From positions 125,116,001-125,180,000 of the forward strand of contig OX597814.1 in NCBI GenBank assembly GCA_951406725.2: a stretch of DNA of 64,000 nt. Direction: 5' to 3'. The translations under genes and the position numbers were made by a program. Below are positions 23,700 through 30,279 of the stretch, piece after piece (positions within the stretch are counted from its first letter, which is position 1; each line of letters starts with the position of its first letter). The stretch is from Octopus vulgaris (taxonomy: Eukaryota). Below the pieces are notes generated by a model. The model was given only the letters and a program-made list of their open reading frames with translations. It was not told where the DNA came from and made no database searches.

Positions 23700-23841
23700 T
23701 TATATATATATATATATATATATATATATATATATATATATATATATATATATATGTAGGTCCCGGGTTGATTCGGGGTTAACCACAGTAAGTAAGGTAC
23801 TCAATACATAGCAGAGTAAAATTAATTTATTATATAGAAGG

Positions 23842-23892
23842 AGCTTCTACAGGACTAGTACTGTTTCATTCAAGAGAAATCTTCAGGAAGCT
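23842..23892 (-). ncRNA. Type I hammerhead ribozyme (left arm)
   Basis: Exact reverse complement of 30027-30077. Confidence 0.78.
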
Positions 23893-26613
23893 ATTTAACA
23901 AGAATTGTATTAGCATTTATACATTTAGGCAGGTTTAAAGGAGTGGTGGTGGGGGACTTTTTGGGGGTAGGCATAGCGCAAAATATCATACTTGGGGGAG
24001 TGGTCAAGGAGTCAGTGGTAAGTTAGATGAAAGAATAGATAAATAAAAAAATAAAAAAATAAAAAAAAAAAAATAAAAAATAAAAAAATAAAATAAAATA
24101 AAAAAATAAAAAAATAAAAAATATAAAAATATATATAAAAAAATATATATATAAAATATATATATAAAAAAATATATATATAAAAAAAGGGGGATAGAGT
24201 TATAGGTAAATAAGGAGATTCTCACTTATACCTATACACACATGTATACGTATCTACACACACATACATACATACACATATATATACACACACATATATA
24301 TATATATATATATATATATATAAATTTATATACATACCTACACATACACACATACATACATACAAATATACATATACATATATATATATACAATCCAATA
24401 CAGGCCCATTCCCTAATTTTAATTTTATTATCTTCATTTATTACTTTTGTTATCTTTGATCGCTAGGGCTAAGAATCCTGGCAATGGCTGCATGTCCATT
24501 TGTCTGTCTACTAGAAGGCAAGTACTCATTCCCGCACGCACACTCATTAGCACGTACATTCACCCATTCGTACACTCATACACATACACGTACGCACGCG
24601 TTATATTCATACATACAAACATCTACATACGTTCACGTATATACACATACGTACTCGTACCTACAGATTCGTGTCTACACTTTAGGAGGCTAGTCTATAC
24701 ATATACACCAATAAATATACATATATATATATATACCCGCATATACATACACACACACACATATATACTCCTACATACAGATACATACCTATATATATAT
24801 ATATATATATATATATATATATATATATACACATACATACACATACACACATACATATAACACACACATACATACACATATATATACATACATACACACA
24901 TACACACATACATACGTATACATACATACATACATCCATACATCCATACTTACATGCATTTATACGCATACACACACCCATCTATATATATGTATATATA
25001 TATATATATATATATACACACTCACACATACATATACAAATCTACGCACACACATACATACATACACGTATACGCATACACGCACATACACATATACATG
25101 CGTACCCATGCACGTGCACACACGCACGCGCATCCATATATATACACACACACACATATATATATACACGTGTGCAAGCATACATACATACTCATACGCG
25201 CACACATACTTACAAATACATATATGCACACACTTACACACATATATATACATACACATATACATGCATACATACATATATGCATACATACACACACGCA
25301 CATATATATATATATATATATATATATATATATACATATATATATACATATATAGATATATATACACATACATACACATACACATACATACACACATATA
25401 CACATATATATATATATATATATATACACATATACACATACATATATACACATATACATACATATACATACACACACACATACATATATACATATACACT
25501 GATACACATACCCATACATACACATGCATATACTTATATCACTACATACTCACATATATAAACATATATACATATACACACATACATATATACATGTACA
25601 TACACATACGTATGCATATATATATATATACATATATATACACATATATATATATATATATATACACACACACACACACATACATATACACATATACATG
25701 TATACATACGCAAAAAATGATACACATATATACACATACACACACACAGACAGATGCATATACATACATATATATATATAAACTACATATCTATATAAAT
25801 ACATACATAATACACATATACACACACATATATATACATTCATGCATATACATATACAAGTATACATACACATACATACACACACACGCGCACGCATACG
25901 TATACACACACACATATACAAATACATACATACACACATACACACACACATATATATATATATATATATATATACATACATGTACACATACACATATGTA
26001 TATATATATCAACAAGGGAGGGTAAAGTTAATTAGTTATTAATCAATTTCATCAAGTGTTCAGTATGTAAAGGGACCATTATTATTTTGAGTAAACAATG
26101 TTAGAGGGAAAAAAATTCTCTAAGTAGTGGAAGAGGCTAAAAAACTTTATTGGCTGCTATTTCTAGAAAGTTTAGTATGTGGCAAAGTAATTTATTTTAT
26201 TTTCCTAAGCCCTAATTATATAATATTTTATACATACATACACATACATAAGCACATACATTTACACATACATATGCATATACATATATACACATATACA
26301 TACAAACACATATACACATATACACACACACACACATACAAGCACATACATATATATATATATATATATATATATATATATATATGCAAATATATATACA
26401 TATATATTTTTACATGCTTACATACACACACACACACATAATACATGCGTATATTCCTACTGTACCCATGCATTTCTATACATATATACATACATACATA
26501 CGATACACATATACAAGCGTGCACATATAATATGTGAAAGGTCTTAGGAGAAAAGGTAATCGGTGGTGCTAGGGGAACAGTGGGGTTGGGGGGGGGTTGT
26601 AGGGGGTGGTATT

Positions 26614-27252
26614 ATGTTGGGTGGGGAAGTGTTTCTCCTACAGAAACACTTCCCCACCCAACATAAGTACTACACTATCCTAAATAAGAACACTATTAGA
26701 CTCTCCTACTCTACCACGCCCAACCTAGCCAGGAACCTAGCCAACAACAATGTGAAAAAACTTAACATATCTACTTTCTCCGGGGCCCATCCAACGTCCG
26801 ATAGCAATTGCAACTGCCATGATAAAACCACCTGCCCCCTCAACAACAACTGCCTACAGAGGGACCTAGTATATAAATGCGAGGTAAGATCAGGCCTTGA
26901 CGATAAAAGTAAATCCTACATTGGAATGACGTCAAACAGCTTTAAGACCCGCTGGTATGCACATACACACTCGTTCCGGCGACAGGATAAATCCAACCAA
27001 ACTACCCTCGCCGCCCACATCTGGTACCTTAAAAGGAACTCAATCCCCTTCAAGACCAAGTGGAAACTACTACAGAAGGCGCGCTCGTACACAGGAGGAC
27101 ATACCTGCTGTGACCTATGCATATCAGAGAGCCTAGAGATCTTGTTCGCCAAAGGCCCTCTCCTTAACAAATTTTCAGAACACTCCCCAAATTGCATGCA
27201 TAAGAAGTATGCGAACTACAAGAACTATAGACCTACCCGGCAACCTGATTGA
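26614..27252 (+). CDS. Penelope-like GIY-YIG endonuclease domain with Cys-rich linker (212 aa from the first ATG; no RT)
   Basis: KHFP..NTIRLSYS..CNC(x5)CPL(x3)C..LVYKCEV..SYIGMT..FKTRW..H..SF..IWYLK..CDLCISE..LLN; the conserved Y, YIG, R, E and N residues are present and there are no stops. Confidence 0.85.
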   Translation: MLGGEVFLLQKHFPTQHKYYTILNKNTIRLSYSTTPNLARNLANNNVKKLNISTFSGAHPTSDSNCNCHDKTTCPLNNNCLQRDLVYKCEVRSGLDDKSKSYIGMTSNSFKTRWYAHTHSFRRQDKSNQTTLAAHIWYLKRNSIPFKTKWKLLQKARSYTGGHTCCDLCISESLEILFAKGPLLNKFSEHSPNCMHKKYANYKNYRPTRQPD

Positions 27253-30026
27253 TGACAACCCCCCCCTACAACCCCCCCCTACAACCCCCCCCCAACCCCA
27301 CTGTTCCCCTAGCACCACCGATTACCTTTTCTCCTAAGACCTTTCACATATTATATGTGCACGCTTGTATATGTGTATCGTATGTATGTATGTATATATG
27401 TATAGAAATGCATGGGTACAGTAGGAATATACGCATGTATTATGTGTGTGTGTGTGTATGTAAGCATGTAAAAAAATATATATGTATATATATTTGCATA
27501 TATATATATATATATATATATATATATATATATATATGTATGTGCTTGTATGTGTGTGTGTGTGTATATGTGTATATGTGTTTGTATGTATATGTGTATA
27601 TATGTATATGCATATGTATGTGTAAATGTATGTGCTTATGTATGTGTATGTATGTATAAAATATTATATAATTAGGGCTTAGGAAAATAAAATAAATTAC
27701 TTTGCCACATACTAAACTTTCTAGAAATAGCAGCCAATAAAGTTTTTTAGCCTCTTCCACTACTTAGAGAATTTTTTTCCCTCTAACATTGTTTACTCAA
27801 AATAATAATGGTCCCTTTACATACTGAACACTTGATGAAATTGATTAATAACTAATTAACTTTACCCTCCCTTGTTGATATATATATACATATGTGTATG
27901 TGTACATGTATGTATATATATATATATATATATATGTGTGTGTGTATGTGTGTATGTATGTATTTGTATATGTGTGTGTGTATACGTATGTGTGCGTGTG
28001 TGTGTGTATGTATGTGTATGTATACTTGTATATGTATATGCATGAATGTATATATATGTGTGTGTATATGTGTATTATGTATGTATTTATATAGATATGT
28101 AGTTTATATATATATATGTATGTATATGCATCTGTCTGTGTGTGTGTATGTGTATATATGTGTATCATTTTTGCGTATGTATACATGTATATGTGTATAT
28201 GTATGTGTGTGTGTGTGTATATATATATATATATATATATGTGTATATATATGTATATATATATATATGCATACGTATGTGTATGTACATGTATATATGT
28301 ATGTGTGTATATGTATATATGTTTATATATGTGAGTATGTAGTGATATAAGTATATGCATGTGTATGTATGGGTATGTGTATCAGTGTATATGTATATAT
28401 GTATGTGTGTGTGTATGTATATGTATGTATATGTGTATATATGTATGTGTATATGTGTATATATATATATATATATATATGTGTATATGTGTGTATGTAT
28501 GTGTATGTGTATGTATGTGTATATATATCTATATATGTATATATATATATATATATATATATATATATATATATATATATATATATGAGTGCGTGTGTGT
28601 ATGTATGCATATATGTATGTATGCATGTATATGTGTATGTATATATATGTGTGTAAGTGTGTGCATATATGTATTTGTAAGTATGTGTGCGCGTATGAGT
28701 ATGTATGTATGCTTGCACACGTGTATATATATATGTGTGTGTGTGTATATATATGGATGCGCGTGCGTGTGTGCACGTGCATGGGTACGCATGTATATGT
28801 GTATGTGCGTGTATGCGTATACGTGTATGTATGTATGTGTGTGCGTAGATTTGTATATGTATGTGTGAGTGTGTATATATATATATATATATATATACAT
28901 ATATATAGATGGGTGTGTGTATGCGTATAAATGCATGTAAGTATGGATGTATGGATGTATGTATGTATGTATACGTATGTATGTGTGTATGTGTGTATGT
29001 ATGTATATATGTGTGTATATATGTTTGTGTATGTATATATATGTGTATGTATGTGTGTGTATATGTATGTGTGTATGTGTATGTATGTGTATATATATAT
29101 ATATATATATATATATATATATATATATATATATAGGTATGTATCTGTATGTAGGAGTATATATGTGTGTGTGTGTATGTATATGCGGGTATATATATAT
29201 ATATGTATATTTATTGGTGTATATGTATAGACTAGCCTCCTAAAGTGTAGACACGAATCTGTAGGTACGAGTACGTATGTGTATATACGTGAACGTATGT
29301 AGATGTTTGTATGTATGAATATAACGCGTGCGTACGTGTATGTGTATGAGTGTACGAATGGGTGAATGTACGTGCTAATGAGTGTGCGTGCGGGAATGAG
29401 TACTTGCCTTCTAGTAGACAGACAAATGGACATGCAGCCATTGCCAGGATTCTTAGCCCTAGCGATCAAAGATAACAAAAGTAATAAATGAAGATAATAA
29501 AATTAAAATTAGGGAATGGGCCTGTATTGGATTGTATATATATATATGTATATGTATATTTGTATGTATGTATGTGTGTATGTGTAGGTATGTATATATA
29601 TATATATATATATATATATATATATATGTGTGTGTATATATATGTGTATGTATGTATGTGTGTGTAGATACGTATACATGTGTGTATAGGTATAAGTGAG
29701 AATCTCCTTATTTACCTATAACTCTATCCCCCCTTTTTTTATATATATATTTTTTTATATATATATTTTATATATATATTTTTTTATATATATTTTTTAT
29801 ATTTTTTATTTTTTTATTTTTTTATTTTATTTTATTTTTTTATTTTTTATTTTTTTATTTTTTTTTAATTTTTTTATTTATCTATTCTTTCATCTAACTT
29901 ACCACTGACTCCTTGACCACTCCCCAAGTATGATATTTTGCGCTATGCCTACCCCCAAAAAGTCCCCCACCACCACTCCTTTAAACCTGCCTAAATGTAT
30001 AAATGCTAATACAATTCTTGTTAAAT

Positions 30027-30077
30027 AGCTTCCTGAAGATTTCTCTTGAATGAAACAGTACTAGTCCTGTAGAAGCT
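30027..30077 (+). ncRNA. Type I hammerhead ribozyme (right arm)
   Basis: agcttc-CTGAAGA-tttctcttgaat-GAAA-cag(tactagtc)ctg-TA-gaagct: perfect 6-bp stem I, 3-bp stem III, GUA cleavage triplet. Confidence 0.78.
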
Positions 30078-30279
30078 CCTTCTATATAATAAATATATAT
30101 ATATATATATATATATATATATGTATATACATATATATATATATATATATATATATATATATATATATATGTATATATATATATATATATATATATATAT
30201 ATGACATATATGTATATGTATATATATATATATATATATATATATATATATATATACACACACACATATATATATTATC

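What the first reader, a model, noticed from the sequence alone, without database searches (positions are those of the whole stretch)
23756..30094. Giant palindrome: stand-alone GIY-YIG nuclease between 2.8-kb inverted arms, each capped by a hammerhead ribozyme
Seen: arms ~23825-26607 and ~27275-30094 are near-perfect reverse complements, differing mainly in microsatellite lengths. The ~670-bp spacer is almost exactly one intact GIY-YIG domain with no RT. Each arm has a hammerhead near its outer end, and both ends abut (TA)n. Known: Penelope-like elements (PLEs) encode RT+GIY-YIG, carry hammerheads in their pLTRs, and can have inverted terminal copies. Inference: this is either a 5'-truncated PLE with an unusually long 3' region duplicated in inverted orientation, or an RT-less 'nuclease + two ribozymes' element. 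A read-through transcript from either strand would be cut at the distal ribozyme and fold into a ~2.8-kb dsRNA stem with the nuclease ORF in the loop.
Basis: partly seen in the sequence, partly recalled or inferred. Interest (0 to 1): 0.85.

Follow-up and report, generated by a model that had tools for sequence, protein, structure and literature searches.

The report
Twin-primed Penelope retroelement palindrome
The palindrome is one truncated copy of a common ribozyme-bearing retrotransposon, not a new nuclease-only element, but its sister copies almost always pair one short end with one 69-base-longer end, which likely means each insertion is copied twice from one RNA, once from each cut DNA strand.

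Summary
The palindrome is in the assembly as described (arms 23825-26606 and 27275-30094; 6 mismatches, 62 gap columns). It is a 5'-truncated copy of a young Hydra-clade Penelope-like family, not an RT-less element. Sister copies run on into RT, one holds an open 713-aa RT+GIY-YIG frame, and none of 60 shares this junction; 46 of 60 also carry an inverted copy. Inverted copies and one-ended tails are known PLE traits. What the family adds: copies end at two fixed sites 69 nt apart (A, B), and two-armed insertions carry one of each (42 of 44; 36 of 36 in a second sample). 658 insertions are ~205-bp hairpins joined at the first bases of the hammerhead. One-armed copies there carry an untemplated G (23 of 29), 29 nt after a TATA box: likely a copied RNA cap. 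Two unique inverted arrays look like rolling-circle products. Best reading: coupled twin priming on one RNA, with capped linear RNA giving short hairpins and circular RNA likely giving long copies. Ribozyme activity, circles and reads spanning this locus are not shown.

The parts
23701..23755 (.). (TA)n target, left side
   Evidence: 23752-23755 also match the element's next four bases
23756..23824 (-). 69-nt tail, present on the left arm only; its outer end is end site B. In full-length copies it lies between the hammerhead and the ATG
23825..26606 (-). inverted copy of the pLTR (left arm)
23842..23892 (-). predicted type I hammerhead, left arm
23915..23921 (-). TATA-like box, left arm
   Evidence: sequence, mirror of 29998-30004
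26609..26636 (-). snap-back insertion: reverse complement of 26642-26670 (25 nt exact), 5-nt loop; by chance creates an in-frame ATG at 26614 buried in a -44.8 kcal/mol hairpin
26634..27252 (+). 3' part of the RT-EN ORF: CxCx5C linker and GIY-YIG domain with stop codon; truncated at position 1638 of the 2256-nt tail+ORF body
27253..30094 (+). direct pLTR / 3' region (2842 nt, microsatellite-rich), ending at end site A, 23 nt after the predicted cleavage site
29998..30004 (+). TATA-like box, 29 nt upstream of 30027
30027..30077 (+). predicted type I hammerhead (core CUGAAGA...GAAA, GUA triplet, cut after 30071); its first base 30027 is the inferred transcription start
30095..30275 (.). (TA)n target, right side

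Best explanation
This is a 5'-truncated copy of a Hydra-clade Penelope-like retrotransposon in a (TA)n tract, and its two inverted arms were likely made as two separate cDNAs primed from the two nicked target strands on the same RNA, one at end site A and one 69 nt further on at site B. Shown: family identity, variable truncation, the two end sites, their one-of-each pairing, shared alleles between arms. Inferred: the RT-EN protein (probably a dimer) nicks both strands of (TA)n; both 3' ends anneal by a few A/T bases and prime antisense cDNA; here the A-primed cDNA ran 2.8 kb plus the EN domain and the B-primed one stopped at the start of the pLTR; the A cDNA end folded back, copied 25-28 nt of itself and joined the other end by microhomology; fill-in gave the palindrome. 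Also inferred: transcription starts at the first base of the hammerhead; twin priming near that capped, uncleaved 5' end gives ~205-bp hairpins; long and tandem copies such as this one likely come from a circular (ribozyme cut and religated) or longer RNA. The spacer is what is left of the ORF, not a gene with its own role.
For: Full-length 713-aa RT+EN ORF in L031, preceded by hammerhead, tail and 45 nt. End sites: 1345 exact A ends and 2305 exact B ends genome-wide, each into (TA)n. Pairing: 39 of 41 scorable two-armed insertions A+B, 2 A+A, 0 B+B (includes the window); 3 more resolved as A+B, giving 42 of 44. Second sample not chosen for the ORF: 36 of 36 adjacent inverted end pairs on C1:1-106 Mb are A+B (one locus shared with the first set). 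First 20 of 64 unpaired B ends: 12 have an inverted hammerhead end, 0 an inverted tail. In 19 of 22 B-left cases, window included, neither arm is a subset of the other (read), which a plain fold-back cannot give. Same template: 1253 of 1263 site calls agree between arms (1089 expected for random partners); rare alleles 26 shared, 8 direct-only, 21 inverted-only; the window's arms share an allele found at only 2 other places in the genome. RNA 5' end: head-to-head junctions 658 at the base of stem I, against 28 at stem III, 5 at the cut site, 4 and 2 in the next two steps upstream; of 70 one-armed loci there, 29 keep base 30027 and 23 of these have a G before it where the element has T (counted by hand), control 16 nt upstream 0; TATA box at -29. 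An extra G marks capped 5' ends in L1 (PMC11702581, passages). Circular template: 0 of 14 full-length copies begin at that start, all reach further upstream; two single-locus inverted arrays of 277- and 333-nt hammerhead units with one A and one B end. In vitro a Poseidon PLE nicks and extends both strands from two internal sites and is predicted to be a dimer (PMC11167929, main text).
Against: All mechanism is read from finished insertions in one assembly. No contig listed bridges the window's junction. 2 of 44 insertions are A+A. Snap-back sequence at the window's junction and near-symmetric junctions in L047, L069, L070 fit self-priming too. Shared alleles fit one RNA, two RNAs from one donor, or one arm copied from the other; 10 site calls and 1 of 16 comparable small hairpins (L091) disagree, and in 10 of 40 insertions another copy's arm scored higher than the partner arm. 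B ends outnumber A ends 1.7 to 1, so many insertions are one-armed or have altered A ends. The hammerhead is not found by Rfam and is weak by energy; in vitro, cleavage was not needed for insertion in the Poseidon element (PMC11167929), so circles are unproven. Part of the 658 hairpins could be self-amplified.
Confidence: 0.72

Rival explanations
1. One cDNA only: it folds back (self-priming, possibly on an antisense template) and copies itself into the inverted arm; the endonuclease then cuts one arm at site A to resolve the intermediate, leaving the tail at one end.
For: 25-nt exact snap-back at the window's junction; near-symmetric junctions in 3 of 60 loci; arms share rare alleles. This is close to published suggestions: tail from EN-mediated resolution (PMC8557442, passages), self-priming from junction palindromes (PMC3846280, passages). 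Site A lies in an ATT-containing stretch, the motif cut in vitro (PMC11167929).
Against: In 19 of 22 B-left insertions the tailed arm is the shorter one, so each arm holds sequence the other lacks. The commonest junctions are perfect or near-perfect palindromes without a loop at the inferred RNA start, which suits two annealed cDNA ends. Site A and site B both behave as RT start sites in vitro in the related element.
Confidence: 0.2
2. A distinct RT-less element made of a stand-alone GIY-YIG nuclease between two ribozyme-capped inverted arms.
For: The EN frame is open and an in-frame ATG exists at 26614; many hits share a 225-aa frame.
Against: The 225-aa frame comes from a C6 instead of C7 run upstream, in copies that go on into RT. 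None of 60 copies shares the junction. The ATG is part of the snap-back and sits in a strong hairpin. Contigs of two runs guessed to be RNA and of one unlabelled run continue into the RT linker at 26634.
Confidence: 0.02
3. Fold-back artefact of long-read assembly.
For: No listed contig bridges the junction; depth in bin 26600-26624 is low or zero.
Against: The arms differ by a 69-nt tail, a 30-nt indel and substitutions, the flanks are not mirrored, and the same asymmetric layout recurs at dozens of loci with different junctions.
Confidence: 0.03
4. The ~205-bp hairpins are a self-propagating MITE- or SINE-like family, not repeated new products of twin priming (this concerns the family, not the window's locus).
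For: High number (658) and near-constant length (14 of 36 C1 pairs span 211-215 nt).
Against: Junctions are heterogeneous and occur in both SNP subfamilies; one-armed copies stop at the same base with an extra G; the hairpins lack the TATA box; the A+B rule also holds for long copies with unique junctions.
Confidence: 0.15

Closest known systems
Hydra clade of C-terminal EN+ Penelope-like elements (Craig et al. 2021, PMC8557442), e.g. Hydra-1_Obim, Penelope-13_HM
   Same: Single RT+GIY-YIG ORF of about 710 aa, DKT, RW(K/R), CxCx5C linker, CxxC and CxH around the conserved E and N, type I hammerhead near the 3' end, (TA)n targets, 5'-truncated inverted copy (noted for Penelope-13_HM).
   Different: Monomer about 5.1-5.4 kb because of a 2.8-3.1-kb microsatellite-rich pLTR (listed families are 1.1-3.0 kb); hammerhead sequence differs from Hydra-1_Obim's; tail 69 nt rather than 30-40; stem III loop of 8 nt against 1-3 nt in the listed Hydra motifs.
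Poseidon from Anolis (PAc; Frangieh et al. 2024, PMC11167929)
   Same: Two RT start sites downstream of the hammerhead that bound the tail; both strands nicked and extended; AT-rich targets; uncleaved RNA used as template.
   Different: Other clade; there the ORF starts inside the hammerhead, here 114 nt after site A. That paper does not report one start site per end of an insertion, a cap-marked start at the hammerhead, or hairpin products.
L1 twin priming (as described in PMC11702581; original model recalled)
   Same: Second target end primes a second cDNA on the same RNA; microhomology joins the two; extra G marks the capped 5' end.
   Different: In L1 the second primer lands at variable internal sites and gives non-overlapping inverted parts; here both primers use fixed sites 69 nt apart, so the arms overlap and form a palindrome.
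Non-LTR retrozymes (bioRxiv 10.64898/2026.07.22.740005; Cervera and de la Pena 2020, seen only as a citation)
   Same: Short tandem units with a type I hammerhead, derived from PLE pLTRs, proposed rolling-circle copying; L109 and L110 are of this kind.
   Different: Here the arrays are inverted pairs with the parent's A and B ends and each unit type was found at one locus only; the window's locus is not a retrozyme.

Membership tests
EN+ Penelope-like element | Single ORF with RT and C-terminal GIY-YIG EN | tested here: met
   713-aa ORF in L031 with RT motifs and EN columns conserved in 15 homologues; some homologues carry PF01541. Pfam and PDB searches with the ORF itself named neither domain.
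EN+ Penelope-like element | pLTRs in partial tandem and/or inverted 5' copy | tested here: met
   46 of 60 loci with an inverted hammerhead end upstream, 10 of 60 with a direct upstream remnant or tandem
EN+ Penelope-like element | Optional tail at one end | tested here: met
   69(+4)-nt tail; 42 of 44 two-armed insertions have it at exactly one end
EN+ Penelope-like element | Type I hammerhead in the pLTR | tested here: inconclusive
   Core and three stems can be written and match the layout of listed Hydra motifs; no Rfam hit; cleavage not testable
Hydra clade | DKT in place of DKG; RWK motif | tested here: met
   SDKTK and IRWR in L031; most aligned homologues have DKT and RWK (features)
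Hydra clade | CxCx5C linker; CxxC and CxH around E and N; no CCHH | tested here: met
   CNCHDKTTC, CDLC..E..N..CMH in the window's frame; no cysteines between the two halves of the GIY-YIG motif
Hydra clade | (TA)n insertion preference | tested here: met
Hydra clade | Generally short (<3 kb) | tested here: not met
   Monomer about 5.1-5.4 kb; the paper gives length as a tendency, not a rule
Hydra clade | Placement in the RT phylogeny with named Hydra families | not tested
   0 of 60
Non-LTR retrozyme | Tandem non-coding units each with a hammerhead | tested here: not met
   Not at the window's locus; met by L109 and L110

The most novel reading that the evidence does not exclude
Penelope-like integration is a coupled twin-primed reaction: one complex nicks both strands of (TA)n and starts two cDNAs on one RNA at two fixed sites, one each, which explains both the inverted pLTR and the one-ended tail. 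The transcript begins at the first base of the hammerhead, so the ribozyme acts as a switch: uncut capped RNA yields hundreds of ~205-bp two-hammerhead hairpins, while cut and circularised RNA yields long, tandem and rolling-circle copies, including new retrozyme-like arrays.
Probability: 0.45. Interest if true: 0.75.

Novelty: new member of a known kind. Interest (0 to 1): 0.55.

Why it matters
The locus itself is ordinary for a Penelope-like element. Its value is as an entry to a young, high-copy family in a contiguous assembly. How PLEs make inverted pLTRs and a tail at one end, and what the hammerhead is for, are stated as open in PMC8557442 and PMC11167929. This family gives counts that constrain the answer (78 of 80 scored pairs are A+B over two samples that share one locus; a cap-like G at the hammerhead's first base; 658 hairpins) and three direct tests. 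If right, PLEs use a twin-priming route unlike canonical one-strand TPRT, and they seed a genome with hundreds of hairpins and multi-kb palindromes that could give dsRNA or fragile sites (not tested).

Tried and rejected
Rfam at gathering score: nothing; by E-value only microsatellite-driven miRNA matches among the 150 of 250 rows shown. Pfam on the EN, on the full ORF and on the neighbouring RT fragment: no relevant family. PDB by profile: 0 hits. Sequencing runs: no RNA holder listed on record; contigs of 4 runs did not bridge the junction, which proves nothing either way. The idea that 26630-26642 is a splice acceptor for a stand-alone EN was dropped: it is coding linker in all 30 first hits. 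The shared 225-aa frame as a sign of an RT-less family was dropped. Left-arm-only variants as a sign of two donors: none of 5 such probes occurs in the 60 loci (for one further site neither allele was found), so they are private changes or errors. The hammerhead cut site as RT stop: only 5 junctions. My junction pattern for L110 returned nothing; unit uniformity there rests. Earlier findings: 3 look-ups, nothing. PMC9977147 and PMC11371274 (passages) did not bear on the question.
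Full report
Observation. The window is G000:C1:125116001-125180000 in a 2.8-Gb assembly; no call names the host. The two arms are near-perfect reverse complements: 2764 matches, 6 mismatches and 62 gap columns in 2832. The spacer holds an open linker plus GIY-YIG frame ending at 27252. Both ends abut (TA)n. A type I hammerhead layout can be written at 30027-30077 and its mirror, but Rfam does not report it and it folds no better than shuffles, so it is a prediction. 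Two extra features matter: the left arm has a 69-nt extension, and the junction holds a snap-back copy of the first bases of the spacer. Contigs of four runs did not bridge the junction, so this one locus is not confirmed by reads.

What it is. The spacer protein has at least 150 matches at 95-100% identity (150 of 23349 candidates scored). All of the first 30 continue upstream into element sequence. I fetched 10-kb stretches for 60 hits: 8 chosen for long frames, 52 taken down the list. L031 holds a 713-aa RT+EN ORF preceded by hammerhead, the same 69-nt tail and 45 nt, and followed by the same 3' region. So the arm is the pLTR and the extension is the PLE tail. Ten of 60 copies are full length, 50 are truncated between body positions 116 and 1637, none shares the window's junction, and 46 of 60 have an inverted hammerhead end upstream. 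The protein has 1081 homologues among 8000 candidates scored, mostly about 700 aa and unnamed; the top named one is from a bivalve. It shows the Hydra-clade marks listed in PMC8557442 section 11: DKT, RW(K/R), CxCx5C, CxxC and CxH, no CCHH, (TA)n.

Two end sites, one per end. Copies end either 23 nt after the predicted cut (site A) or 69 nt further (site B); exact patterns give 1345 A and 2305 B ends. L038 is nested but A+B on either reading; L089 was too complex to score. In a second sample, the 63 A and 100 B ends listed for C1:1-106 Mb, 36 of 36 adjacent inverted pairs within 12 kb are A+B; allowing non-adjacent pairs adds one B+B that encloses an A end. Of the first 20 of 64 unpaired B ends, 12 have an inverted hammerhead end that the exact pattern missed and none has an inverted tail. 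In 19 of 22 B-left cases the tailed arm is the shorter, so neither arm can be a plain copy of the other.

Same template. At 45 segregating sites in unique segments the arms agree in 1253 of 1263 calls, against 1089 expected for random partners; of rare alleles 26 are shared, 8 direct-only and 21 inverted-only. The own partner was the best match for 30 of 40 inverted arms among 52 direct arms, two of them with ties. The window's arms share an allele seen at only two other places. This shows one donor; it does not separate one RNA from two RNAs of that donor or from DNA copying.

The RNA's 5' end. Of the 36 C1 pairs, 14 span 211-215 nt; 18 short ones were read. They are hairpins whose arms meet at the first bases of hammerhead stem I, with varied junctions and in both SNP subfamilies. 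Genome-wide there are 658 such junctions, against 28 at stem III, 5 at the cut site, and 4 and 2 in the next steps upstream. One-armed copies joined to (TA)n at this point number 70 loci (99 rows); 29 keep base 30027 and 23 of those have a G before it where the element has T (counted by hand); the control 16 nt upstream gave 0. A TATA box lies 29 nt upstream. In L1 an extra G at the 5' junction reflects the cap (PMC11702581, passages). I infer a capped transcript that starts at the hammerhead's first base and is copied uncut, in line with PMC11167929.

Long copies. None of 14 loci with an internal hammerhead-tail-ORF starts at that base; all reach further upstream or are tandem. Two arrays of 277- and 333-nt hammerhead units, each found at one locus, are inverted pairs with one A and one B end; all 14 unit junctions in L109 are identical. 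This fits rolling-circle copying of a circular RNA by both primers; read-through RNA or template jumps between the two hammerhead regions are not excluded.

Mechanism for the window. Inferred: both strands of a (TA)n tract were nicked; the bottom strand primed at A and ran to 26634; the top strand primed at B and stopped at the start of the pLTR; the longer cDNA folded back, copied 25-28 nt and joined the other end by a short match; fill-in made the palindrome.

Literature. Seen: PMC11167929 parts 1-2 of 4 (main text, start of methods); PMC8557442 passages, section 11 and part 2 of 59 of its supplement; PMC3846280, PMC11702581, PMC9977147, PMC11371274 passages; bioRxiv 10.64898/2026.07.22.740005 part 1 of 5 and passages, supplements not seen. 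[quoted passage not shown] A strict one-site-per-end rule, a cap-marked start at the hammerhead and the hairpin class were not found in searches; the library lacks most subscription papers, and older PLE papers (Arkhipova 2006, Cervera and de la Pena 2014) were not read, nor the supplements of PMC11167929.

Verdict. Real in the assembly, a new member of a known clade, ordinary as a locus; interesting for what its family says about an open mechanism. Interest 0.55.

Noticed in passing
L109 (G000:C2:64627300-64633300) 1013-4913; L110 (G000:C5:37480300-37490200) 1122-8968: Inverted pairs of tandem arrays of 277-nt and 333-nt units (pLTR end + hammerhead + tail + ORF start), each with one A and one B end; look like retrozyme-type arrays made by rolling-circle RT.
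   Followed up: partly
genome-wide, e.g. L091-L106: 658 hairpins of about 205 bp made of two head-to-head hammerheads in (TA)n; would be taken for MITEs.
   Followed up: yes
ORF linker upstream of window 26634, loci L031-L090: 44 of 55 copies have C6 where the open frame needs C7, which uncouples EN from RT. Four other A5/A6 runs show no short calls and other 5-nt runs only 1-2, and several in-frame copies have the run broken by a substitution. Either an assembly error at C7 or a real frameshifted majority; unresolved.
   Followed up: partly
genome-wide: Exact B ends outnumber exact A ends 2305 to 1345; partly altered A ends, partly one-armed insertions.
   Followed up: partly
window 23500-23700 (+), core near 23575: A second, unrelated hammerhead-like core with a variant first half, between (TA)n tracts just left of the element; probably the 3' end of another PLE or a retrozyme-like repeat.
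   Followed up: no
window 17945 (+): Hammerhead-like core CUGAUGA...GAAAC, stems not checked.
   Followed up: no
window 30815-31825 (-): 337-aa frame with a YLDD RT motif and thumb, only 31% identical over 67 aa to this family's ORF; likely a PLE of another clade.
   Followed up: partly
window 61362-62323 (-): Overlapping broken frames that resemble the thumb and GIY-YIG region of another PLE (resemblance recalled, not tested).
   Followed up: no
window 1242-1697 (-): 152-aa frame resembling a decayed Tc1/mariner transposase end (motif recalled, not tested).
   Followed up: no
L038, L089, L105, L139: Copies inserted into or right beside other copies of the same family, as expected from (TA)n targeting of their own flanks and pLTRs.
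   Followed up: no
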